Assembly: GCA_965242865.1 (NCBI GenBank)
Contig: CBDETK010000002.1
Span: 1-11,896, forward strand
Reading direction: 5' to 3'
Length of the DNA: 11,896 nucleotides
Origin: Candidatus Latescibacterota bacterium
GTDB taxonomy: Bacteria > Latescibacterota > UBA2968 > UBA8231
Position 1 is the stretch's first letter; the number at the start of each line of letters is the position of its first letter. The notes below the pieces were generated by a model that was given only the letters and a program-made list of their open reading frames with translations, made no database searches and was not told where the DNA came from. Shown here one piece after another: positions 200-9,869 of this stretch. The position numbers and the translations under genes are program-made.

Positions 200-210
200 T
201 GTTGTACCCT

Positions 211-317
211 GCATCTCTCACGGGGTGAGTTGGGAGTGGATTGAAATACGGGGTGAGCTTGGGAGTGGATTCCCGTAGTATTTCTCAGCCAAGCGGCTGG
301 CCAGAGTGGATTGAAAC
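211..317 (+). CRISPR. CRISPR-like repeat locus 1 without regular spacers: repeat A (211-247), partial A copy (248-271), repeat B variant (278-317)
   Basis: GCATCTCTCACGGGGTGAGTTGGGAGTGGATTGAAAT, then ACGGGGTGAGCTTGGGAGTGGATT, then GTATTTCTCAGCCAAGCGGCTGGCCAGAGTGGATTGAAAC. The full units are hairpins followed by TGGATTGAAA(C/T). The RBS of the next gene follows directly. Confidence 0.75.
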
Positions 318-330
318 AAGGGAGGCTATC

Positions 331-1326
331 ATGGCCCGAAAGCAACGAAAGCAACATCGGTATGACATAGGCGCGGGGGGTGCGGCGGATGGGGCGACCT
401 TGCGTGCTCGTTGGAAGCTCGGCAGCATCACGGCGGCTATTCGTCAGGCGTTGGCGCGGTCGGTGGCGGACGACCCTCCGGTGGCGGATGTAGCGGCGCT
501 GGTGGCGGACGTAGAGTCGGCCAAAGAGGTTTTGTGGCGCGCGGTGCCCCCCGTGGGGCATGGGCGCGAGGCCCTCCTGCTGGCAGACCATTGTCGTATT
601 GCCGTCGCGGATCTGGTCGATTACAAACGTCGGCTCCAGGCTATTTCGAATTCGTATGCGAAGTTGGAGGCGGATCGCGACGGGTACAAGCGGTCGCTTG
701 CGGAGTGCGCTTCGGAGCGCGATGGGATGCAGGAGACCGTGCTCACCCTCCGGGCGGAGCGCGATGCGTTGCAGGAGGATGTGGCAACCCTTAGGGATCG
801 GATACGCGAGATGGAGGAGGTGCATCATAATACGGTGGAAGCGCAAACGGCGTTGCGGCGGGAGGCGCTGGCGACTCTCGTTGAGGCGGGGTTGTGCGAC
901 CGTGATACGATGCCGCTGCAGGCGGGTGTCAACCAAGCCAGAGACCGGTTCCACAGGGTGCGCGAGGATGTCAAAGCGCTGGAGGCCCATATAGACGCCT
1001 TGAAAGCGCGGGAGAAAGAGCGCAACGACCACTTCGAAAAGTCCCAGCGGGAGGCGGTGCAGGCTCTCGTAGAGGCGGGGTTGTGCGATGAGTGGAAGGC
1101 TGTCGATACGCTGAGCGCCAAAATAGCCCAAGCGGTGGAAAATTATCAGTGGTCTGTTACGAATTGGGGGCGTCTCCAGGACGACCGCGACCGTATCAAG
1201 CGACAGGCCGAACGGGACGTAGAAAGCGCCCGGGTGCGTTGGATGATGTGGACGTGTCTGTCCTTTGCGGCGGGCGCGTCGTTGGCGGTGCTGGCTCTGG
1301 TGGCGTTCGGGGGCTTTTGGCAGTAA
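331..1326 (+). CDS. Hypothetical coiled-coil protein with a C-terminal transmembrane anchor (331 aa)
   Basis: RBS AGGGAGG at 319-325 precedes ATG at 331; the track's TTG at 241 lies inside the repeats. Long E/R/A/L-rich heptad region, duplicated RE(A)xxxLVEAGLCD motif, hydrophobic tail WMMWTCLSFAAGASLAVLALVAFGGFW. Confidence 0.8.
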   Translation: MARKQRKQHRYDIGAGGAADGATLRARWKLGSITAAIRQALARSVADDPPVADVAALVADVESAKEVLWRAVPPVGHGREALLLADHCRIAVADLVDYKRRLQAISNSYAKLEADRDGYKRSLAECASERDGMQETVLTLRAERDALQEDVATLRDRIREMEEVHHNTVEAQTALRREALATLVEAGLCDRDTMPLQAGVNQARDRFHRVREDVKALEAHIDALKAREKERNDHFEKSQREAVQALVEAGLCDEWKAVDTLSAKIAQAVENYQWSVTNWGRLQDDRDRIKRQAERDVESARVRWMMWTCLSFAAGASLAVLALVAFGGFWQ

Positions 1327-1331
1327 AAACA

Positions 1332-1436
1332 GGGCGCGGCTTGGTGTGGGAACCGTTCCCAATCAGCGCGGCGTTTCGTCTCTCTAAAGGAGCCGGATTA
1401 TCCGCGTCGCGGTCTAAAGGTCACCGGGCCGCGCCC
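1332..1436 (+). other. Structured intergenic element (candidate cis-regulatory RNA or ncRNA)
   Basis: GGGCGCGGCTTGGTG (1332-1346) pairs with CACCGGGCCGCGCCC (1422-1436) over 15 bp with 2 G-U pairs. It encloses palindromes at 1347-1361, 1394-1404 and 1402-1412, and TCTAAAGG twice. Confidence 0.5.
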
Positions 1437-1457
1437 ACTAACCGAAGGAGAGGAATC

Positions 1458-1970
1458 ATGTTGTTGGATGAAAAGCAGTTGGAGGATTTGAAGCAGGAAC
1501 AAGCGGAGCACGAGGCGGAGCTGGCTCCGGTACGGGAACGGTTGCTCGAAGCCCGTGCGGAGTTGGCGGAGGCGTCGGAGGGGATCCGCACCCGTCGGGA
1601 CATGGAGCCGCGCCGTGCGGCGTTACCCTTTTTGTGTCGGCGCAACGAGTTGGAGTTGGAGTATGACCGCGTGAAAGCCCAGTTGGATCGGGTGGCCGTG
1701 AAGATCGATCTGGGCAGTAACCCGCATTTGTTCCCTCTCAGGCCGGACGAACCGGAACATTATATGCTCGTTTGGGAGACGACCCTCCACGAGCAGGTGT
1801 GGGTGCGGCGCGATGCGCCTATCGACGATCTGCCGCCCACGGTCCGCGAGAGTTTCCGAAATCGGCTATTAGATGAGGAGCAGAAACGCGAGGCGGCGGA
1901 GGGCCGCCCCACCTACCAGGCTACGAACTACTGGGCCGGCGAGGAGGAGGATGACGAAGATGAAGACTAA
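1458..1970 (+). CDS. Hypothetical acidic protein with N-terminal coiled coil (170 aa)
   Basis: RBS GAAGGAGAGG precedes ATG at 1458; the track's start at 1092 overlaps the upstream gene. Ends in the acidic tail EEEDDEDED. Confidence 0.8.
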   Translation: MLLDEKQLEDLKQEQAEHEAELAPVRERLLEARAELAEASEGIRTRRDMEPRRAALPFLCRRNELELEYDRVKAQLDRVAVKIDLGSNPHLFPLRPDEPEHYMLVWETTLHEQVWVRRDAPIDDLPPTVRESFRNRLLDEEQKREAAEGRPTYQATNYWAGEEEDDEDED

Positions 1971-2331
1971 GACCGAACAACCGTTCGCGCCTATGCGTAA
2001 GGGGCAGGTCATTGCGGTGGCTCGGGTCTGGTGGGACGAGGCGGAGGTGGTCTGGGGGTTTACGCTCGCCCGGGTGGTGCGTACCAATCGCGAGGGGTTT
2101 GTGACGCACTTCGTCTTGAGCACGCGGGACGGGTTCCCCGATGCAACGCCGCGCAAGGCGACCCAAGGCAACACGCTGGGCATTACCGCGTGTTATGATA
2201 TTGGGTGGGGCGCTCAGTCGGTGGGCGACCGCTTAGCGGGCGTCGTCTGGCCCAATCTCAAGGCGGCGCGGAAGGCGATCCGTGCGGCGTATGACGACCT
2301 GCCCCCACCGGAAAAAGGAGACCTAGCATGA
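1960..2331 (+). CDS. Hypothetical phage protein (~123 aa)
   Basis: GAGGAGGAGG at 1941-1950 precedes ATG at 1960 (alternative ATG at 1951). Overlaps the upstream stop, typical of translational coupling. Confidence 0.75.
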   Translation: MKTKTEQPFAPMRKGQVIAVARVWWDEAEVVWGFTLARVVRTNREGFVTHFVLSTRDGFPDATPRKATQGNTLGITACYDIGWGAQSVGDRLAGVVWPNLKAARKAIRAAYDDLPPPEKGDLA

Positions 2332-2402
2332 CCGAGCGCCGTAGCGTAGTAGCCTGTATCTCCCGCGGGCTGAGTCGGGAGTGGATTGAAACCGATGAGT
2401 AA
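2328..2402 (+). CDS. 24-aa micro-ORF (MTERRSVVACISRGLSREWIETDE) reading through repeat locus 2; leader peptide or gene remnant
   Basis: RBS AAAGGAG at 2314-2320, ATGA overlap with the upstream stop, and TAA at 2400-2402 just after the start of the HTH gene (ATGAGTAA). Confidence 0.4.
   Translation: MTERRSVVACISRGLSREWIETDE
2356..2392 (+). CRISPR. Solitary CRISPR-like repeat A (locus 2)
   Basis: GTATCTCCCGCGGGCTGAGTCGGGAGTGGATTGAAAC: 37 nt, perfect 6-bp stem CTCCCG/CGGGAG followed by TGGATTGAAAC. Confidence 0.8.
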
Positions 2403-2859
2403 GCCTACGCGCGGTCGGTCCCGCAGCCCCGTGTCCCGCGGCGAGCATGATGACCAGATACGGGCGTTGTATGAACGTGGCTACACCCACGCTGAGATCG
2501 CGGAGCGGGTTTGTTCAAACCGTACGACGGTCAGCTATCGGATCAAGGCGTTGGAGCTTACGCGGCCGGCGGGACCTCCCCGTCGGCCGCGCATCATCAC
2601 GAGGCGCGGGAAGTTGAAGTCTGGGGCCTACGACAAGGCCGCCTATGACCCACACAAACGCCTCGCGGCGGATATATTGGCTCCCTTGTGTGAGGTTGCG
2701 AAATACGAACCAGACAGCAACGAGGGACGTCTGGCGCGCACCCAACTGCGTTGGGCGATGGGTACTATCGAGTTGAACATCATTGGAGCGTGCATTACAA
2801 TACTGGATGTGGAGCGGCAAGTCGCTGAGTTACTAGACCCTGTATCTCCCGCGGGGTGA
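2395..2859 (+). CDS. Helix-turn-helix DNA-binding protein (154 aa)
   Basis: Motif DDQIRALYERGYTHAEIAERVCSNRTTVSYRIKAL. ATG lies 2 nt after repeat locus 2, and the last codons and stop lie inside repeat locus 3. Confidence 0.8.
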   Translation: MSKPTRGRSRSPVSRGEHDDQIRALYERGYTHAEIAERVCSNRTTVSYRIKALELTRPAGPPRRPRIITRRGKLKSGAYDKAAYDPHKRLAADILAPLCEVAKYEPDSNEGRLARTQLRWAMGTIELNIIGACITILDVERQVAELLDPVSPAG

Positions 2860-2952
2860 AATGGGAGTGGATTGAGTCGTATTTCTCTCTGATTTTTGGA
2901 GAGTGGATTGAAACTGTATAACGCTACTGGATGTGGAGCGGCAAGTCGCTGA
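2791..2952 (+). repeat. Direct repeat flanking repeat locus 3: identical 28-mer at 2801-2828 and 2925-2952 within ~38-45 nt of homology
   Basis: TACTGGATGTGGAGCGGCAAGTCGCTGA occurs twice, preceded by TGCATTACAA (2791-2800) and TGTATAACGC (2915-2924) respectively. Confidence 0.95.
2842..2914 (+). CRISPR. Spacer-less tandem CRISPR-like repeats A (2842-2878) + B (2879-2914), locus 3
   Basis: GTATCTCCCGCGGGGTGAAATGGGAGTGGATTGAGTC immediately followed by GTATTTCTCTCTGATTTTTGGAGAGTGGATTGAAAC. Confidence 0.8.
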
Positions 2953-2974
2953 AATTTTAACGAAGGAGGAGTAG

Positions 2975-3181
2975 ATGAACAAACCACTCAAACGAATGCT
3001 CGATCAGCACACCGCACGGGTTGGTGAGGCTATTCAGTCCCTCGAGGATAAGCTCGCCCAAGCCAAGGGGGCGGCCATGCGGTTAGAGCTCGAAAACGAA
3101 ACGCTACGCGAGAACAACAAACGGCTGACACAGCAACTTGAGGCGGCCCGACGCTACGGGCTAATGGCAGCCGATGAATAA
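2975..3181 (+). CDS. Small coiled-coil hypothetical protein (68 aa)
   Basis: Strong RBS GAAGGAGGAG; heptad pattern IQSLEDKLAQ...LELENETLRENNKRLTQQLE. Confidence 0.8.
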   Translation: MNKPLKRMLDQHTARVGEAIQSLEDKLAQAKGAAMRLELENETLRENNKRLTQQLEAARRYGLMAADE

Positions 3182-3509
3182 TCCGCACGTGTGGGTGCAA
3201 CATTACGACGGCATGGCCGGTCGTTTTTTCAAGCAATACGCCCACGGGCTATGCGCCCTGGTATCCCCGAAAGACCATGTTCACCGCGGGAAGAAAGGGC
3301 GGACGTGGTTTGCGCGTATCAGCCACGGGGCGGGGGGGGCGGTGCCCTATCGACGGGACCCCGATTCCAGTTGCGATGTCATATACCAATCGGGCTTTGA
3401 CACGCCGGAAGCGGCGATGTTGTGGGCGGATAATCAAGTAGCAGCGATCGACAACCTAATAACCAACCAACAACCCAACGGAGGAAGTGAAGATGAACGA
3501 GCAACATGA
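3174..3509 (+). CDS. Hypothetical phage protein (111 aa)
   Basis: 8-nt overlap (ATGAATAA) with the upstream gene. Contains a WFARI...GFDTPEAAMLWAD pattern of the kind seen in small phage accessory proteins. Confidence 0.75.
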   Translation: MNNPHVWVQHYDGMAGRFFKQYAHGLCALVSPKDHVHRGKKGRTWFARISHGAGGAVPYRRDPDSSCDVIYQSGFDTPEAAMLWADNQVAAIDNLITNQQPNGGSEDERAT

Positions 3510-3663
3510 AGCGATGCAGCAAGCGCAGGACGATGCCAAGATCGAGGCGACCCAAGAGGGCGTCCGCATGCAGAACGCGCACGGCGGCGAGCTGGTGATC
3601 AACGAAGGGCTGGTGATGTACCGAAAAGTGCTTTGGGCGTTGCCCGAGCGCAAGACGCCGTAG
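3493..3663 (+). CDS. Small hypothetical protein (56 aa, MNEQHEAMQQ...LPERKTP), not in the supplied ORF track
   Basis: GGAGG at 3480-3484, ATG at 3493, open frame to TAG at 3661-3663. Fills the gap before repeat locus 4. Confidence 0.7.
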   Translation: MNEQHEAMQQAQDDAKIEATQEGVRMQNAHGGELVINEGLVMYRKVLWALPERKTP

Positions 3664-3682
3664 CGTAGTAGCGTAGGACCCT

Positions 3683-3755
3683 GTATCTCCCGCGGGGTGA
3701 GTTGGGAGTGGATTGAGTAGTATTTCTCTCCAAATTTTGGAGAGTGGATTGAAAT
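3683..3755 (+). CRISPR. Spacer-less tandem CRISPR-like repeats A (3683-3719) + B (3720-3755), locus 4
   Basis: GTATCTCCCGCGGGGTGAGTTGGGAGTGGATTGAGTA immediately followed by GTATTTCTCTCCAAATTTTGGAGAGTGGATTGAAAT, whose stem CTCTCCAA/TTGGAGAG is a perfect 8 bp. Confidence 0.8.
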
Positions 3756-3812
3756 TGGAACAAGACGTGCTGGCGCGTGCCCTGCGGCGGCTATCGGATT
3801 GAACCCTCACCC

Positions 3813-3853
3813 CAACGCCCCTGTATCGCCTTCTGAGCGACGCAGGGGCGTTG
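3813..3853. terminator. Strong hairpin between convergent transcription units (possible terminator or RNA 3' stabiliser)
   Basis: CAACGCCCCTG (3813-3823) pairs with CAGGGGCGTTG (3843-3853), with an inner TCGC/GCGA stem. No U-tract on either strand. Confidence 0.45.
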
Positions 3854-3908
3854 CTATGCTATGACACCAGTGGGCGTCCCCCAGCGCGACACGGGGCATC
3901 CGGGGCGC

Positions 3909-6900
3909 TCAATCGACCACTTGGAACGTGATCGGCATATAGATTGTTTCTGTGCCGTCCGACGCAATCAGCACCGCCGGCCGTGGGTATAGGTCGGCGG
4001 TGCTTTGTGCGTTGGCCGACAACTGGAACACGTTGCGCGCTAATGTGCTGCTACGGGCTATTTGCACCGGGCAGCCCGTCGTGTACGCAAAGCGTAGCGT
4101 GTAGGTGATCGTACGCCCCGCCACCGTGCTGGCATACGAGAAGTCCGCATTGGCGGTCTGTCGTTGCGTCCCGCGCGTCCCCTCATTGAACACCACAAAG
4201 TTGCGCGTCCCTTTCTTGATGGGATAGAAGGTCTGCGCGGGGATGCCCGAGGCGTTCGGTAGCTCATACGCCCACGTCAGGTTATTGGCGGCGGCCGACG
4301 CGCCCCCCACAAACGTCTTGAGGGTGCTTAGCTTGACGAAGCGGTTGGGGTCGCCACTGGTGCTCTCATCGCTGACGACCATGCGGTCATCATCGTGCAG
4401 GGTCGTTAGCTCGGTGGTGACATCATCGTGTAGGTCGAACGCAAGCCGGCTTTTTATTTGGGCGAAGGTTACATAGCGGTTCGGGTCACCGGGTATAAGT
4501 TCTGCACTCACCACAAACCTATCATCATTTTGTGGTGAGTGCCCTATGGTAACGTCGTCATGCAGGTCAAACAGGGACCCTATCTGATACTTATACAGCC
4601 TAAGCGGCCTTGCGGTGACGTCGGTATGGCTGGCCGCAATGAACAGGTTGCGGCTGCTGTCGGTCGCCAGATAGACCACACGCTCCGCCGAGCCGCTCGA
4701 CGCGCCAATGGTCAAGCTAAGGCTTAGGTCGTCACTAACCAGACCATTATGTCTTCCATCGGTGGTCAAGTTGCCGCCGTAGAACCATTTGAGTTCGGCG
4801 CGCTCGCCGCCCAAGTCAATCGCAAAGATAGACGTAGCATAATCGGTGGGTAGGTTCATGTTGGCATCTACATACCGACGACGCCCCAACGTCGAGGAAA
4901 CGATTGAACTGCGGCTTGACACCAGCTTCAACCCGCCCGGCGCATCGGTCGAGAACGTGGGGGTGAGGAACGTTCTAAGTGTAGCCAAGGTGGCATAGCG
5001 GTTGGGGTCGCCACTGGCCGACTCGTCGCTCACCAACAGCCTATCGTCATCATGCAGCGCGGCGATAGCCGTTGTTACATCGTCATGCAGGTCAAACGAG
5101 CCGCCGCCACTGCTGCCTATGAACGTCTTGAGGGTTGCCAGCGTGACGTATCGGTTCGGATCGCCTGACACCGACTCATCGCTAACCAGCATCCGATCGC
5201 TCTCGTTCAGTGACGAGATAGCCGTTGTTACATCGTCATGCAGGTCAAACGAACCGCCGCCGCCCGTGCTTAGGCCCGCCGTAATGAAGGTCTTGAGGCT
5301 TGCCAGCGTGACGTAGCGGTTGGGATCGCCGCTGGCCGACTCGTCGCTAACCAACATCCTATCGTCGTTATGCAGGGACGGAATGACTGTGGTAACGTCA
5401 TCGTGCAGATCAAAATCGCCGCCGCCACTACTTAACCCAGCCGTGAAGAACGTCTTGAGGGTGCTGAGGGTGACGTAGCGGTTCGGATCGCCGCTGGCCG
5501 ACTCGTCGCTCACCACCATGCGGTCGTCGTTGTGCAAGGCGGTCAGTTGCGTCGTAACGTCCTCGTGCAGGTCAAAGGCGACGTAGTTTTTAAGGGTTGA
5601 AGCAGTAATGTACACATTGGTATGATCATGAATGTTGCCAAGAAGGAACCTGTCCGTGGCTATCACCGACGATTTGGCGTTTGTGACATCGGAAAACAAT
5701 ACAAAGCCCCCGCGATCAAGCCCCTCGGTGATAAAGGTCTTGAGGAGTCCCAAGGTAATGTATCGGTTGGGATCATTCGTCAATGATTCGTCGCTAACGA
5801 TCATCCGGTCGTTGTTGTGCAGGGATGCGATAGCCGTGGGGACATCCGTATGCACTCTGAAGTCATCGGTAACAGGCAGGTCTTGCCATGTACTGCCATC
5901 CCAATACTCAAGCCCCGAAGGACTGGCATTGTTATACCGTACTTCCCCTTGGCTGCCTATATCGGGTTCGCGGATGGTGACTCGAATGATCTGACTGATC
6001 GTCTCTGTTCCACTCTGAGCAACCCACGTGAACGAACTGATCGTCTCAAGCACCGGCAAGCGCCCTACCACCGCAACGGCCCGCACGGTGGTGTTGACCG
6101 AGAGATAGGACGGCACCCCTTCGGCGCGATAGGCCACGGCCGCCGCCTCGGTGGTCGTGGCCGCCGGCAGTATAGGGGCCGCCGGTTGGAGCACCGCCGT
6201 CCCCACATCGCCCGTAAGAGCGGTCACGCCGCTCTCATCCCATGTAAGCGTAGGCGGAGCCGCCCCCGCAGCAATGCCTTCCGGTATCTGAAAGAGCGAT
6301 ATGTCGTTGACATGATGCGTGAACGTGCTGCGGAACATAAGCGTATTACTCGAGGAACGAGCAATCACCTTCTCGTTGACCAATAAGGCTCCTACTGTCG
6401 TGTCCGCAGCGTATTCATAATCGGTGTTTGCTCTTTCAACCAGGCTGCGTAGCGTCTCTGCACGAACAAAGAAACTGCCGCTCGTCCTATATAGAAGCCG
6501 GTAGTAGAGCAAGCACAATCCACTGGCGGGCAGGGCAATGCCCGTGTCCATCCAACCGGCAGCGTTCGGATCGCCGCCCGAGAGACTACGGTTTCTAAAA
6601 GGCTGCCCTATGCGCGTGATGCTGTTGACATCATTCTGCTCAAGCGTAAGCGAATAAACACGCAACGTTCCCGTGTTAGAAGCCGTGAAACGATCTACGT
6701 CATTGACTATGCGGAACAACAACTGGTTCGACTCAGATCGTGTTAGTTCAATCCATGTGGTGGTACTATATGGGGCTGTGTAATAGAGGTATTGTGCCGC
6801 CGTCGGCCGGCCGCCTCTGCTGGGAGGGAACAGGCGCAATAACGAAGGAGAAAAGACTATGTATCGACCGCTCCAATCATCGACATGTAACAACAACCAC

Positions 6901-9869
6901 CCCGCGGTCGGTAGGGTTATGCCTGTGTTGTAATAATAGGCACTGCCTCGGGCGGCCAGCGTGTAATCGCTGCCCACTTTAGTTATGCCTGAGTCGCCTG
7001 TACCGGGAAACGCGAGACGATAGACGGTAAAGGTGCTATTGAATAAGCGACTAAAATCGGCATCATTAACGGCATCTATCAACAGTTCATGGGTTGCCGA
7101 TTTTGATAGTGTCACAAAAAAATCGCCGGCTGAGACTGCGGTTGTTCCGGTCGTCCCCATCTCGGAACGCATCTCAGCCGCATTAAACAGGTAGCTTGGC
7201 CCTTTTGCGAACTGAAAGAATAGCCAGCCCGTCTCGGGGATGGTAAAGCCGGTGGCCCATTGCGTGGAGCCTGAATAGGTGAACGAATACGTATCGCCTA
7301 TCTGCTCTATCGAATAGTCTGTTGGCAGCCGGTCAATGTTTAAGGTGATCACCTGCGAGATGACTTCGCTGCCGCTGGTCGCCTGCCATACAAAAGAGGC
7401 CGGCCCCATAGGGGCATTACCCGTAGCGGTAACAGCCCGTGTAGCGACGTTAATGCTAAGCCATGACGGGGCATCCACCGCCGCATACACAATAGCCTCC
7501 CCGTCGCCCTGCGTAGCCGACGGCAGCACCGGCGCGGTCGGGTCTAAGGTCTGTGTGCCCTGTGTAACCCGAATACTATAGGCGTCGTCGTTGTCCCATG
7601 TCAGCTTAGACGTAACAGCCGTAACATCCGCCGGCGTTGTAACCTCCACCGTGCTCGCCGGCACGGAGCCGGTCACGAGCGTCCCCGTGGGCAGCCACCA
7701 CGCGGCCCTGATGCGTATCTTCGTCTCGGCGGGTAGGGTGTCGAGAAGAATGTCGTCGCCCACGTCAACGCTCTCGCGCCGCCCTAAGCGCGTATAGGTC
7801 TCGACCGCGCCGGGCAACGGAGCGGTCGTAAGGCTACCCCACTCCAACGAGACCTGCGGAAAGACGGCGTTGGTTATGTTAACCGTCACGCGGTCGTGCA
7901 ACAGGTCCTTCGTGGTGATCGTGGGGGGGGCGGTCGCCTGCTCGGGCAACGGCGTCGTGTCGATCTCGCCTAACGCCGTCGAGGCACCAAACAACGTATC
8001 GGGATCCTCGCGCAGATAGGCTTGAAGCGTAAGCTCTTTCGTTACATTCGTCCTAACCACCCGGAACCGCTCGCCCGCGATCCCTTGCTGCGGATCCGTG
8101 AGGGTGACATAATCCCCGGGGCGCACCGTGAGAAGCGCCAGGTTATCGCGGGGGCGTAAGACGTACGTGCTGCCCCTAAAGAGGCGCAGGTGGCGTAGGG
8201 CCAGCGCGGTAAGGCGTTGCGCGGTGTGGGCATTAGAAACCAACGAGACATCGGGCAGCCGCTTTTTTAGGCGCACGTTGCCATCATCGGTCAGCGCATC
8301 GCTATTCGTCAGTTGGATGTCGTAGGGCTGATAGTTCGCTTGGGCGGCCTGCTCGACCTTACAGGCAACCACGTTGATACGCTCCTCCACCGGGGGGGCG
8401 ACATAAAACGGATTGCTCTGAACAATATCATCCGCGGTGAGCACTCGTGCGCCCGACGGGTAGGCGCGCCCCGGCTCGTAATACACCTTGTCGCCATGCT
8501 CGACGACCGCGCCCTGCCACGCAAAGTCTAACTCCTCCTCCACCGCCCGCGGGTCATCGCTATACTGCACCAGACCCGACACCGGGTATTGAATCGTGCG
8601 CGGCACCAACGCCACCGTGACCGTGCCACCAATCTGCTGAATAATCTTTTGGTGGTCCGCCGCCGAGATCGTCCACGAGGCATAGCCCGTGTGCCAGGTG
8701 GGGTCGGTCTGCCCCGACAGGTCCGCCCGCCGCAACGTACTCGTCGGACGGCCCTCGCCGTCTATGTCATCGGGATGCAGCCAGACCACACCCCCATTCG
8801 CCAGCGTGATTTTTACGGAAACGCTATGCGTCCGCAGCCAATTCCCGATAGGTTGGGTCAGCGTGACGGTATTCGCGGTCTGCGTGGCCGCCTCCACGTT
8901 GACCCGGGCGGTATGCACCGCCCCCGTAGCACTTATCTCTATGTTCGTCAGCAGATGGCCCGACGAAAATGTGCGTTGCGCGTCCGTGCCCGCGGGCGCA
9001 AAGGTGCGCGCAGGCCCCGCCCCCGTCACCGCGCAACTCACCGACAGCACGTCCGCAAACTCGACCGACCGCGCGCATTCGGCTACTGCCGACGTGAACG
9101 CGGTGCTATCCAACGACGCATCCTCATCGCCAAACACGCGCTTGCGGTAGTCGTAGCGGACCACTGCCGCATTTTCGGAAAACGTGGGCGTCGTTTGTCC
9201 CGGCCAAGTCGTTTTGAGACCGCGCACGAGAAAACGGATGTTCGGTACAGAATCCTCGTTCTGCCAATAGCGTATCGTGCGGAACGATTGACCTGCTAAA
9301 ATGCGCTCAGACCGGGCGCTGGTCAGTTTGACATGAACCCAGCTCCAATTTTCCATACGATGGCTGCGCGACCAACCGCCCTTAGCCCACAGGCTGGCAC
9401 CCTGATTGCCGTCCGCCGCGAAGTACTCGCGCAACTCAATCCCGCCATTGAAGTCCAGTATATCCGTTTCACAGGTCAGCCTATCGCCAGTCTCGCCCGT
9501 GGGCGGATCATGGCGGGTGAGCACCGCCGGGCGGTCGTTGATATAGAGACCCTCAATCGCCTCCATCGCGCCGCGACCCAACACATAAGCCAAATGCAAA
9601 TCCACCGGGTTCGCTGGGTCTTGCCAAGCAAAGACCAAGTGCCCCGGAACGTTTGCCCGACCATAGACCAAGCGCGGCGTCAATGGGCCGCTACTGGGTA
9701 CCTGTAATTCGCGCTGTATGCGCTCGTCGTGCGCGGGGTTGCGGTTCAGCAGATAGCCTACCGCACCCAAGCCCAGCGCCGCGGTGACGCCCCAGGGACC
9801 GGAAAGCTGCCACGCCGCCAGTTCACCGCCGACGCTCGTAGCCAGTTTTAAGAAATTTCTGTCGGCCAT
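3909..9869 (-). CDS. Phage tail tip / host-specificity (gpJ-like) protein fused to a repetitive tail fibre/adhesin (1986 aa)
   Basis: N-terminal motifs typical of tail tip proteins (PRLVYGRANVPG, GAMEAIEGLYIND, PNIRFLVRGLK, TFSENAA). Thr/Ser/Gly-rich beta composition, duplicated Ig-like segments, 8 fibre-type repeats, and position after the minor tail genes. Confidence 0.85.
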   Translation of the reverse strand: MADRNFLKLATSVGGELAAWQLSGPWGVTAALGLGAVGYLLNRNPAHDERIQRELQVPSSGPLTPRLVYGRANVPGHLVFAWQDPANPVDLHLAYVLGRGAMEAIEGLYINDRPAVLTRHDPPTGETGDRLTCETDILDFNGGIELREYFAADGNQGASLWAKGGWSRSHRMENWSWVHVKLTSARSERILAGQSFRTIRYWQNEDSVPNIRFLVRGLKTTWPGQTTPTFSENAAVVRYDYRKRVFGDEDASLDSTAFTSAVAECARSVEFADVLSVSCAVTGAGPARTFAPAGTDAQRTFSSGHLLTNIEISATGAVHTARVNVEAATQTANTVTLTQPIGNWLRTHSVSVKITLANGGVVWLHPDDIDGEGRPTSTLRRADLSGQTDPTWHTGYASWTISAADHQKIIQQIGGTVTVALVPRTIQYPVSGLVQYSDDPRAVEEELDFAWQGAVVEHGDKVYYEPGRAYPSGARVLTADDIVQSNPFYVAPPVEERINVVACKVEQAAQANYQPYDIQLTNSDALTDDGNVRLKKRLPDVSLVSNAHTAQRLTALALRHLRLFRGSTYVLRPRDNLALLTVRPGDYVTLTDPQQGIAGERFRVVRTNVTKELTLQAYLREDPDTLFGASTALGEIDTTPLPEQATAPPTITTKDLLHDRVTVNITNAVFPQVSLEWGSLTTAPLPGAVETYTRLGRRESVDVGDDILLDTLPAETKIRIRAAWWLPTGTLVTGSVPASTVEVTTPADVTAVTSKLTWDNDDAYSIRVTQGTQTLDPTAPVLPSATQGDGEAIVYAAVDAPSWLSINVATRAVTATGNAPMGPASFVWQATSGSEVISQVITLNIDRLPTDYSIEQIGDTYSFTYSGSTQWATGFTIPETGWLFFQFAKGPSYLFNAAEMRSEMGTTGTTAVSAGDFFVTLSKSATHELLIDAVNDADFSRLFNSTFTVYRLAFPGTGDSGITKVGSDYTLAARGSAYYYNTGITLPTAGWLLLHVDDWSGRYIVFSPSLLRLFPPSRGGRPTAAQYLYYTAPYSTTTWIELTRSESNQLLFRIVNDVDRFTASNTGTLRVYSLTLEQNDVNSITRIGQPFRNRSLSGGDPNAAGWMDTGIALPASGLCLLYYRLLYRTSGSFFVRAETLRSLVERANTDYEYAADTTVGALLVNEKVIARSSSNTLMFRSTFTHHVNDISLFQIPEGIAAGAAPPTLTWDESGVTALTGDVGTAVLQPAAPILPAATTTEAAAVAYRAEGVPSYLSVNTTVRAVAVVGRLPVLETISSFTWVAQSGTETISQIIRVTIREPDIGSQGEVRYNNASPSGLEYWDGSTWQDLPVTDDFRVHTDVPTAIASLHNNDRMIVSDESLTNDPNRYITLGLLKTFITEGLDRGGFVLFSDVTNAKSSVIATDRFLLGNIHDHTNVYITASTLKNYVAFDLHEDVTTQLTALHNDDRMVVSDESASGDPNRYVTLSTLKTFFTAGLSSGGGDFDLHDDVTTVIPSLHNDDRMLVSDESASGDPNRYVTLASLKTFITAGLSTGGGGSFDLHDDVTTAISSLNESDRMLVSDESVSGDPNRYVTLATLKTFIGSSGGGSFDLHDDVTTAIAALHDDDRLLVSDESASGDPNRYATLATLRTFLTPTFSTDAPGGLKLVSSRSSIVSSTLGRRRYVDANMNLPTDYATSIFAIDLGGERAELKWFYGGNLTTDGRHNGLVSDDLSLSLTIGASSGSAERVVYLATDSSRNLFIAASHTDVTARPLRLYKYQIGSLFDLHDDVTIGHSPQNDDRFVVSAELIPGDPNRYVTFAQIKSRLAFDLHDDVTTELTTLHDDDRMVVSDESTSGDPNRFVKLSTLKTFVGGASAAANNLTWAYELPNASGIPAQTFYPIKKGTRNFVVFNEGTRGTQRQTANADFSYASTVAGRTITYTLRFAYTTGCPVQIARSSTLARNVFQLSANAQSTADLYPRPAVLIASDGTETIYMPITFQVVD
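4311..5864 (-). repeat. Eight intragenic ~45-50 aa repeats FDLHDDVTTxxxxLHxDDRMxVSDESxSGDPNRYVTLxTLKTF (six, then an insert, then two)
   Basis: Directly visible in the translation and as recurring plus-strand DNA motifs such as tcgtgcaggtcaaa and cggttgggatcgcc. One copy is degenerate. Confidence 0.9.

What the first reader, a model, noticed from the sequence alone, without database searches (positions are those of the whole stretch)
207..3755. Dispersed family of spacer-less CRISPR-like repeats in a phage accessory operon: candidate multi-copy RNA anti-CRISPR / CRISPR-hijacking system
Seen: four loci at gene boundaries hold seven full repeat-like units and one partial, all on the sense strand, with no cas genes or regular spacers. 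Established: type I-C repeats end in TGGATTGAAA(C/T), and Cas5d cuts at the stem base to leave that 11-nt 5' handle. Solitary repeats on mobile elements can act as RNA anti-CRISPRs (Racrs) by sequestering Cas proteins. Inference: this transcript carries many processing sites that could titrate host Cas5d/Cas6 and Cascade, or use the host nuclease to cut the polycistron into separate mRNAs. Several loci with two repeat types spread through one operon goes beyond the single solitary repeat layout I know. Caveat: these units are 36-40 nt, longer than typical 32-nt I-C repeats, so the subtype is not settled.
Basis: partly seen in the sequence, partly recalled or inferred. Interest (0 to 1): 0.92.

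Follow-up and report, generated by a model that had tools for sequence, protein, structure and literature searches.

The report
Phage copies of host CRISPR repeats
A phage whose host has a type I-C CRISPR system carries many spacer-less look-alikes of CRISPR repeats inside its own messenger RNAs, most likely as decoys that soak up the host's CRISPR proteins.

Summary
The window holds seven full repeat-like units and one partial unit, all on the + strand, at four loci.

The window is a whole contig of a tailed phage. It was assembled together with a 5.6-Mb chromosome that carries a complete type I-C cas operon and a 41-repeat array.

The units keep what Cas5c is reported to read, the stem base and the tail. 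The upper stem and loop vary, with compensatory changes.

- One unit type resembles the host repeat.
- The other is 74-85% identical to true type I-C array repeats of Leptospiraceae MAGs.
- A sister contig of the same phage has a real two-spacer mini-array.
- That contig also has one unit in frame inside a head-tail adaptor gene.

Units are gained and lost between co-assembled phage variants.

Best reading: multi-copy RNA decoys of the Racr type (0.5). No expression or binding data exist. I class this as a new variant of a known kind.

The parts
211..247 (+). Unit A1: a 37-nt repeat-like unit of the host-like type with a full 11-nt tail
   Evidence: model hit of 41.7 bits, E 6.1e-9. It begins 11 nt after the stop at 197-199.
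248..274 (+). Partial A-type unit: loop, 3' stem half and a truncated tail, with no 5' stem half
   Evidence: Read directly. Not found by the model at E <= 1. Absent from sister contig C4.
275..317 (+). Unit B1: B-type 5' flank and tail around a different inner hairpin. It looks like a chimera of a B unit with the plain hairpin that C4 has at this place.
   Evidence: weakest model hit in the window (280-317, 33.9 bits). 3 of its 7 stem pairs are broken in alignment A1 (by reading).
2356..2392 (+). Unit A2: a solitary 37-nt unit between the ORF that ends at 2331 and the start at 2395
   Evidence: Best model hit, 49.5 bits. Sub-threshold Rfam CRISPR-DR9 match of 28.8 bits against a gathering score of 45. 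76% identical to the host repeat.
2328..2402 (+). 24-codon micro-ORF that reads through unit A2. Its start overlaps the stop of the upstream ORF and its stop overlaps the start of the next gene.
   Evidence: Whether it is translated is unknown.
2842..2878 (+). Unit A3, first of a spacer-less tandem pair. Its tail is cut short after 8 nt by the start of B2. The stop codon of the HTH-like ORF (2857-2859) lies in its loop.
   Evidence: (40.5 bits). The whole pair is absent from C4.
2876..2914 (+). Unit B2: a 39-nt B-type unit with a full tail
   Evidence: 2881-2914, 41.5 bits. 85% identical to a Leptospiraceae type I-C array repeat.
2791..2828 (+). First copy of a 38-nt direct duplication that flanks the A3+B2 pair (the coding 3' end of the HTH-like ORF)
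   Evidence: D12. C4 has a single copy and no units there.
2915..2952 (+). Second copy of the 38-nt duplication, directly after the tail of B2
   Evidence: 4 differences, at codon positions 3, 3, 3 and 1 of the frame that the first copy uses.
3683..3719 (+). Unit A4, first of the second spacer-less tandem pair
   Evidence: 41.1 bits. Conserved in C4.
3717..3755 (+). Unit B3: a 39-nt B-type unit. Its hairpin appears in both the minimum-energy and the centroid fold.
   Evidence: 3722-3755, 40.6 bits; z -2.6.
3756..3804 (+). 40-nt stretch after B3, ending in a remnant of the tail motif (3796-3804), possibly a decayed spacer plus repeat stub. An inverted repeat read by eye follows at about 3822-3857, then the convergent gene end at 3909.
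   Evidence: No other match of the 40 nt in the assembly. The layout parallels the end of the C4 mini-array. The spacer reading is inference.
206..210 (+). 5-nt upstream linker that can pair with the loop of unit A1. Equivalent linkers lie at 2351-2355, 2837-2841 and 3678-3682. Together with the repeat stem this could form a pseudoknot or a pair of alternative hairpins.
   Evidence: helix 1 is paired in 100% of cells, and one pair changes on both sides (GC 5, CG 3, UG 1). The structure was derived from these same sequences.
331..3663 (+). The + strand operon that carries the units: ORFs 331-1326, 1458-1970, 1960-2331, 2395-2859 (weak HTH matches), 2975-3181, 3174-3509 and 3493-3663
   Evidence: No family above any curated cut-off, and no solved-structure relative for the 4 ORFs tried.

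Best explanation
The units are phage-borne mimics of type I-C CRISPR repeats. They are transcribed as parts of ordinary phage mRNAs, because every unit outside the mini-array lies on the sense strand. Each offers the host Cas5c nuclease the features it reads: a hairpin whose base abuts the conserved 11-nt tail. The most likely function is an RNA anti-CRISPR of the Racr kind, present in many copies. Cas5c, and perhaps Cas7 and the rest of Cascade, bind or cut these sites and end up in dead-end particles. The tandem A+B pairs would release a roughly 36-nt 'crRNA' with a handle and a hairpin but no spacer. As a result fewer functional surveillance complexes carry real spacers. Shown here: the sequences, their similarity to real repeats, the host system, the strand bias, the covariation, and the gain and loss of units between phage variants. 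Inferred: transcription, recognition by Cas5c, and any effect on immunity.
For: (1) The host context fits. The same assembly holds a full type I-C operon and 41 identical 37-nt repeats ending in the same tail apart from its first base. There is a single Cas5d-family gene and it is chromosomal.
(2) The phage uses this system. Sister contig C4 carries a mini-array with a promoter-like box, two spacers of 35 and 34 nt, repeats 97% identical to the host repeat, and a terminator. Its first spacer matches a tail gene of the phage and its variants at 30-31 of 35 positions.
(3) The host has met such phages. The fifth spacer from the cas-proximal end of its array contains the reverse complement of the end of a B unit: 16 of 16 bases against 2900-2915.
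(4) The conservation pattern equals the reported Cas5c determinants. The invariant columns are the stem base and the tail, while loop, upper stem and 5' flank vary. In the passages read of PMC8524198, recognition centres on the cut site and the bases just downstream, and the loop and 5' overhang are tolerant.
(5) The hairpin is kept by compensation. 87.8% of cells are paired against 75.3 +/- 2.8 in shuffles (0 of 500 reach it). 18 cells change on both sides against 8.1 +/- 2.3. Slid controls give 46-65%.
(6) B units belong to a real type I-C repeat family. All 7 loci found are in Leptospiraceae MAG arrays, one on the same contig as a Cas8c gene (586 bits), with identity of 74-85%.
(7) All 7 independent non-array loci in C2, C4 and C11 are sense to their flanking genes.
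(8) Their positions differ: a 5' UTR, intercistronic gaps, and one inside a coding frame. The only thing they share is being in mRNA, which fits a trans-acting RNA.
(9) There is precedent. RacrIC1 works from a bicistronic mRNA with AcrIC5 (PMC10651486, section 10).
Against: There are no expression, cleavage or binding data. A-type units are only 70-76% identical to the host repeat. Their repeat-type stem is not the predicted minimum-energy fold, and their folding energies are no better than shuffles (z -0.5 to +0.4; z -0.2 to -1.4 in context). All phage units have T at the first tail position where all 41 host repeats have C. The Rfam match is below threshold. No known anti-CRISPR protein relative was found beside the units. 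A unit inside an essential adaptor gene would cost the phage mRNA if it were cut efficiently. Units are present or absent between near-identical variants, which could also mean they are nearly neutral. No related phage was found, so conservation over evolutionary distance could not be tested.
Confidence: 0.5

Rival explanations
1. The phage co-opts host Cas5c as a processing enzyme in cis. Cuts at the units would separate cistrons, leave hairpin-capped 3' ends on upstream messages and 5'-hydroxyl ends on downstream ones, and so tune the stability or translation of phage mRNAs.
For: Most units sit exactly between a stop and the next start. One follows the major head protein gene. The start at 2395 lies 2 nt after a tail and has no ribosome-binding site of its own. 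Cas5c products carry 5'-OH and cyclic phosphate ends (PMC8524198 passages).
Against: One unit lies in frame inside the head-tail adaptor gene of C4 and C11, where a cut would destroy the message. The tandem A+B pairs are redundant for a single cut. Variant C4 lacks the locus-3 pair without any other change to the two flanking genes. A phage that depended on a host system which many strains lack would be fragile. There are no RNA data.
Confidence: 0.15
2. The units are guide-producing elements: decayed or minimal mini-arrays, or crRNA-like regulators of the Cracr or crlRNA type. A unit together with the ~35 nt after it would be loaded into host Cascade and direct it to related phages, or to host promoters with partial matches.
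For: A true mini-array exists in C4, led by a variant unit. Single type I-C repeat units are reported to give 49-50-nt crRNA-like RNAs that repress promoters (10.1101/2024.12.27.630466 passages). Viral regulatory arrays, including type I-C ones, are reported (10.1101/2024.10.29.618823, section 7). Loci 3 and 4 end in 38-40-nt stretches after a full tail.
Against: Between A and B there is no spacer at all. The sequences after the units showed only seeds of 4 to 13 bases in the host cas locus; the one 13-base seed is a repeat-tail copy against the host's own degenerate repeat between cas4 and cas1, and none followed the PAM reported for type I-C. The 38-nt stretch after B2 differs from its own upstream copy at positions 3, 6, 9 and 10 and lacks that PAM. 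The 40 nt after B3 match nothing else in the assembly. Most units are followed directly by a ribosome-binding site and a gene. A whole-genome search for targets was not completed.
Confidence: 0.15
3. The units have little or no present CRISPR function. They would be relics of captured repeats that now persist as recombination-prone boundary sequences, moving gene cassettes between related phages, or as generic RNA hairpins.
For: Units mark differences between variants. The A3+B2 block with a 38-nt flanking duplication is absent from C4. The mini-array block of 262 nt is absent from C2. A unit plus gene end is tandemly duplicated in C4 but single in C11. Locus 1 differs in make-up. Identity between C2 and C4 drops from 98.5% to 96.3% across locus 3. 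Public-run contigs break at the units and continue into other contexts, with joints between units (248 to 3693; 3754 to 321).
Against: Relics would not keep the exact Cas5c determinants and a compensated stem across four diverged types, nor a strict sense orientation at 7 of 7 loci. An in-frame unit inside a conserved gene points to selection for the element. Short assembly contigs break at any repeat, so the joints are weak evidence. No promoter-like site lies in a unit, and terminator-like sites were at chance level (4 found, 3.1 expected), one of them spanning the partial-A/B1 junction at 260-275.
Confidence: 0.15

Closest known systems
RacrIC1 and other RNA anti-CRISPRs (solitary repeat units, SRUs) of phages: PMC10651486 (abstract, section 10, method passages read)
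   Same: A repeat mimic of the host's CRISPR subtype carried on a phage, without cas genes or spacers. The type I-C example is co-transcribed with a protein gene. In that survey the host carried the matching subtype in 83% of cases.
   Different: Here there are 7 units in one 3.6-kb operon and at least 10 model hits in the 28-kb sister contig. At least two repeat families are present. There are spacer-less tandem pairs, one unit inside a coding frame, and a possible extra helix with the upstream linker. That paper's SRUFinder pipeline was built to keep only solitary units, discarding candidates with partial matches within 100 bp, so layouts like this may have been filtered out. Function is untested here.
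Viral mini-CRISPR arrays used in conflicts between viruses (review PMC11656645, passages read)
   Same: Sister contig C4 has exactly this: host-like repeats, two spacers, and a first spacer aimed at a gene of the phage's own kin.
   Different: The window itself has no unit-spacer-unit arrangement. Its units are adjacent or solitary.
Viral crRNA-like regulators (Cracr arrays), preprint 10.1101/2024.10.29.618823 (abstract, sections 7-8 read), and host type I-C SRU-derived crlRNAs, preprint 10.1101/2024.12.27.630466 (passages read)
   Same: Degenerate type I-C repeat-like units outside arrays, cut by Cas5c to leave an 11-nt handle. Multiplexing in one transcript.
   Different: Those need a pseudo-spacer with a PAM-proximal match to a promoter. 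No such match to the host cas locus was found, and the tandem pairs have no pseudo-spacer.
Promoter-stem-loop cassettes (PeSL) at gene boundaries of T4-type phages (recalled, not looked up)
   Same: Short repeated stem-loop elements at gene boundaries that coincide with modular differences between related phages.
   Different: No promoter-like site lies in the units. The units derive from CRISPR repeats and are tied to the host's type I-C system.

Membership tests
Type I-C CRISPR repeat family (sequence and structure) | A hairpin whose 3' base directly abuts a conserved 11-nt single-stranded tail | tested here: met
   tail and stem base invariant; 87.8% of cells paired, with 0 of 500 shuffles as high. 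For B, C, D and host-like units this is also the minimum-energy fold. For A units it is not.
Type I-C CRISPR repeat family (sequence and structure) | Similarity to repeats of arrays that sit beside type I-C cas genes | tested here: met
   A, C and D units are 70-76% identical to the host repeat beside cas3-cas5c-cas8c-cas7-cas4-cas1-cas2. B units are 74-85% identical to Leptospiraceae array repeats, one array lying on the same contig as Cas8c.
Type I-C CRISPR repeat family (sequence and structure) | Match to a curated Rfam CRISPR-DR model above its gathering score | tested here: not met
   Only unit A2 and its C4 copy match CRISPR-DR9, at 28.8 bits against 45. The near-host repeats of the C4 mini-array were not matched either, so the library does not cover this repeat family well.
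Racr / solitary repeat unit | A repeat mimic on a mobile element whose host has the same CRISPR subtype | tested here: met
Racr / solitary repeat unit | Solitary: no other full or partial repeat within about 100 bp (SRUFinder rule) | tested here: not met
   Loci 1, 3 and 4 hold two or three units side by side. Only A2 is solitary.
Racr / solitary repeat unit | Expressed as RNA that binds Cas proteins and lowers interference | not testable with these tools
   No RNA holder was listed.
Viral mini-CRISPR array | At least two repeats separated by a spacer of normal length | tested here: not met
   Not met in the window. Met in sister contig C4 at 12364-12539.
Cracr / crRNA-like regulator | A pseudo-spacer with at least 9 PAM-proximal matches to a host cas or toxin promoter | tested here: inconclusive
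   In the 11-kb host cas locus the best seeds were 4-13 bases; the one 13-base seed is a repeat-tail copy against the host's own degenerate repeat, and none had the reported PAM. The rest of the genome was not searched because that step was stopped.
Promoter-stem-loop or terminator cassette | A sigma-70-like promoter or a T-tract terminator within the unit | tested here: not met
   3 promoter-like sites (1.3 expected), none in a unit. 4 terminator-like sites (3.1 expected), one of which spans the partial-A/B1 junction at 260-275.

The most novel reading that the evidence does not exclude
This phage lineage has seeded its whole transcriptome with type I-C repeat mimics of several repeat families: early accessory operon, a moron 5' UTR, the message after the major head gene, and even the coding frame of a head-tail adaptor gene. 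Some may be locked into a pseudoknot with a phage-specific upstream linker. Nearly every phage mRNA would then be a sponge for, or a substrate of, host Cas5c and Cascade. The units also spread and are lost within the phage population like small mobile cassettes. This would be a distributed, evolvable RNA counter-defence that can cover hosts with different type I-C repeats, rather than a single small-RNA gene.
Probability: 0.25. Interest if true: 0.85.

Novelty: new variant of a known kind. Interest (0 to 1): 0.68.

Why it matters
RNA anti-CRISPRs have been described as single solitary repeats, and searches for them were built to keep only those. If this phage really uses many tandem and dispersed mimics, including one written into a protein-coding frame, three things follow:
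- Counts of RNA anti-CRISPRs are underestimates.
- Repeat mimicry can be multiplexed across repeat families.
- Coding sequence can be shaped by pressure to imitate a CRISPR repeat.

The system is also a clean test case. The host cas operon, its array, a host spacer that remembers such a unit, a phage mini-array, and natural variants with and without units all lie in one assembly.

Tried and rejected
Searches for relatives found nothing:
- Degenerate patterns for B and A units found 0 stretches in viral contigs.
- An A/B-junction pattern found 0 in metagenome contigs.
- An A/C/D pattern found 0 in genome contigs.
- The major head protein and the HTH-like protein gave no related viral locus.
- The head protein matched only G000 among 76 genomes of the order.
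- A B-type pattern matched only G000 among those 76 genomes.

The 13-base tail motif occurred once or twice in 13 other genomes of the order. That is near chance level, and 12 of the 14 sites have no hairpin. One is the terminal repeat of a host-type array. Four near-matches on the own chromosome have no hairpin.

Other tests with negative or empty results:
- Cracr test: no convincing PAM-flanked match of post-unit sequence to the host cas locus.
- Neither of the two host arrays has a spacer against C2, C4 or C11, apart from the 16-base unit end in one spacer.
- No family above a curated cut-off for the window ORFs, and no solved-structure relative at E <= 0.1 for the 4 ORFs tried.
- Promoter and terminator scan at chance level.
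- No RNA holder listed.
- The Logan contigs laid are short and break at repeats, so their joints are only hints.
- A word-based search for homologues of the adaptor protein found only itself. The full HMMER search then found 127 others, of which I aligned 19.
- The atlas gave no taxa for RpoB, so the host lineage is left unnamed.
- Supplements of the papers were closed. The SRU tables of PMC10651486 might list multi-unit phages.
- In its main text the terms 'more than one', 'copies', 'several SRU' and 'two SRUs' had no occurrence.
- Claims that something is not in print rest on searches only.

Full report
WHAT IS THERE

The 11-base core shared by the units occurs seven times in the window, always on the + strand. 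Shuffles expect 0.14, and 0 of 200 reached 7. Reading the sequence and the repeat finder (families D3, D7, D13) give two unit types.
- A-type units are 37 nt: 211-247, 2356-2392, 2842-2878 and 3683-3719.
- B-type units are 39-43 nt: 275-317, 2876-2914 and 3717-3755.
- A partial A unit lies at 248-274.

At loci 3 and 4 an A unit runs straight into a B unit with no spacer. The A tail is cut short after 8 bases by the start of B.

A covariance model made from 14 units and repeats finds these seven and nothing else in the window, with none on the - strand. The units sit after stop codons and before the next starts. At locus 3 the stop of the upstream ORF lies in the loop of A3.

WHERE THE WINDOW COMES FROM

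The window is the whole of contig C2 of a 13-contig assembly. Contigs C4 (28.4 kb) and C11 (23.4 kb) overlap it at 92-98% identity. They encode a tape measure protein, major head protein, head maturation protease, endolysin and DNA methyltransferase. The three contigs are therefore co-assembled variants of one tailed phage. In the window, the - strand half holds the end of the tape measure gene, two small tail genes and a 1986-codon ORF. The units lie in the convergent + strand operon of seven small ORFs without family assignment.

THE HOST SYSTEM

The 5.6-Mb contig C13 carries 41 identical 37-nt repeats with 40 spacers of 34-37 nt. Directly upstream lie cas3, cas5c, cas8c, cas7, cas4, cas1 and cas2; Cas5c, Cas8c, Cas7 and Cas1c score above the curated type I-C cut-offs.

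The host repeat has the same plan as the units: a stem, a loop, and a tail that equals the unit tail except for its first base (C in all 41 host repeats, T in all phage units). A second array on C13 belongs to a type III-D-like locus. Its repeat is 49-67% identical to the units.

THE PHAGE AND THE HOST SYSTEM ARE LINKED

- C4 has, at 12364-12539, a promoter-like box, a variant unit, a 35-nt spacer, a repeat that differs from the host repeat at one base, a 34-nt spacer, a truncated repeat and a terminator. This 262-nt block is missing from the window between 9870 and 9885.
- Its first spacer matches the neighbouring small tail gene in C2, C11 and C4 at 30, 31 and 30 of 35 positions. The mismatches fall at the PAM-proximal end and the flank is not the reported PAM. 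This is what is expected of a mini-array aimed at relatives but not at self.
- The fifth host spacer from the cas side contains the reverse complement of a B-unit end followed by unknown sequence. The host lineage has therefore sampled a phage of this kind.
- No other host spacer matches the three contigs.

ARE THE UNITS CRISPR REPEATS BY DESCENT?

A units are 70-76% identical to the host repeat. The C and D units of C4 and C11 are 86-92% identical to A2.

A scan of 185,579 species genomes with a B-type pattern found 7 loci. All are regular arrays of about 72-nt period in Leptospiraceae MAGs. One of them is on the same contig as a Cas8c gene of 586 bits. B2 and B4 are 85% and 83% identical to those repeats.

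Rfam gives only a sub-threshold match of A2 to CRISPR-DR9. It also misses the near-host repeats of the mini-array, so this says little.

STRUCTURE

Across 14 sequences the invariant columns are the two outer stem pairs and the tail. The seven stem pairs are formed in 87.8% of cells, against 75.3 +/- 2.8 in shuffles (0 of 500 as high) and 46-65% when slid. Changes on both sides occur in 18 cells, against 8.1 +/- 2.3.

This is the pattern reported for Cas5c. [quoted passage not shown] The loop and 5' overhang tolerate change (PMC8524198, passages).

Against this, the A-type stem is not the minimum-energy fold, and A units fold no better than shuffles.

A, C and D units have a further 5-pair helix between an upstream linker and the loop. 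It is paired in 100% of cells, and one pair changes on both sides. With the repeat stem it would form a pseudoknot or an alternative hairpin. The sequences are few and related, and the structure was read from them, so this is a lead only.

UNITS COME AND GO

C4 lacks the A3+B2 pair. In the window the pair is flanked by a 38-nt direct duplication of the end of the upstream gene. The second copy differs at four positions, three of them third codon positions and one a conservative first position. It therefore looks like the end of a diverged homologue rather than a fresh duplication. Identity to C4 falls from 98.5% to 96.3% across this point.

At locus 1, C4 has the A unit followed by a plain hairpin. 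The window has a partial A and a chimeric B around the same hairpin core.

After the major head gene, C4 has the D unit duplicated in tandem together with 24 nt of gene end, while C11 has it once.

Contigs of public runs break at the units and run on into other contexts. Short contigs break at any repeat, so this is weak evidence.

A UNIT INSIDE A GENE

In C4 and C11 the B4 unit (L014 7295-7331, - strand) lies in frame in a 188-codon ORF. The ORF matches the head-tail adaptor family phrog_442 in one stretch, weakly (E 3.3e-4). It has 127 full-length relatives of about 180-200 residues.

In an alignment with 19 of them, the unit encodes residues 83-96, a variable stretch between two nearly invariant positions. 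The protein is slightly shorter there than its relatives, not longer. The mimic has been written into coding sequence.

This argues against the units being cistron separators or intergenic regulatory cassettes. It argues for selection on the element in mRNA.

READING

All seven independent loci outside the mini-array are sense to their genes. They occupy a 5' UTR, intercistronic gaps and a coding frame. The common factor is presence in phage mRNA.

Together with the kept Cas5c determinants, the matching host system and the published RacrIC1 precedent (PMC10651486, section 10), the best explanation is a multi-copy RNA anti-CRISPR (0.5).

Rivals:
- Cis processing by Cas5c (0.15).
- Guide or regulator production (0.15). 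No target was found in the cas locus, and the whole-genome search was not done.
- Recombination-prone relics (0.15).

None is excluded. Nothing here shows transcription, cleavage or binding.

NOVELTY

Solitary repeat units, mini-arrays and viral crRNA-like arrays are all in print.

What I did not find in the texts read or in searches:
- A phage with many dispersed and tandem spacer-less units.
- Units of two repeat families in one phage.
- A unit in a coding frame.
- A conserved upstream helix.

Supplements were closed and could hold such cases.

Noticed in passing
G000:C13:4796507-4800849 and flanks (L011): A second host array (37-nt repeat, 56 spacers) lies next to a type III-D-like locus (Cas10, Csx10, Csx7, Cas1). 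12 of its 56 spacers match the host's own chromosome perfectly over their full length, and 5 more nearly so. One matches a multi-copy element.
   Followed up: partly
L010 1588-1624 (- strand), between cas4 and cas1 of the host type I-C operon: A degenerate repeat (26.2 bits with the unit model) lies here, preceded by a copy of the array's leader end. It is followed at once by an 18-nt partial repeat with no spacer. It resembles the crRNA-like elements reported inside cas operons, and also the A-plus-partial-A layout of window locus 1.
   Followed up: partly
L014 7295-7331 (C4) and L015 15467-15503 (C11), - strand: Unit B4 has a 9-pair stem with a four-base loop. It is in frame inside the head-tail adaptor gene and encodes residues 83-96.
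   Followed up: yes
window 2791-2828 and 2915-2952: A 38-nt duplication, close to the 37-nt repeat length of the host system, flanks the inserted A3+B2 pair. Its four differences are at codon positions 3, 3, 3 and 1. The mechanism of insertion is unexplained.
   Followed up: partly
window 3909-9869 (- strand): A 1986-codon ORF next to the tail genes holds five or six tandem copies of a 153-165-nt unit at 60-77% identity. The C4 version has 2192 codons. It is probably a tail fibre or host-recognition protein. No Pfam family was found.
   Followed up: no
L028 about 1500-1545 (- strand), G031, same genus: Between a small Pup-like gene and a proteasome beta-like gene (both named by eye) there is a short hairpin followed by the full type I-C-type tail. 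It is the only one of the 14 stray motif sites, apart from an array's terminal repeat, that has a hairpin. It may be chance.
   Followed up: partly
G000 contigs C9, C12, C6: Host type I-C spacers 36-38 match these small contigs at 26-31 bases, and twice each in C9 and C12 about 10.5 kb apart. These contigs look like other mobile elements assembled as concatemers.
   Followed up: no
L015 4846-5376 (C11, - strand): The promoter-like box and variant unit that lead the C4 mini-array here lead a 68-codon ORF and a 78-codon ORF that looks membrane-spanning by eye. One module is used for two different cargoes.
   Followed up: partly
window 2328-2402: A 24-codon micro-ORF with a ribosome-binding site of its own reads through unit A2. 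It overlaps the stop and the start of its neighbours, so ribosomes may unfold this unit.
   Followed up: no
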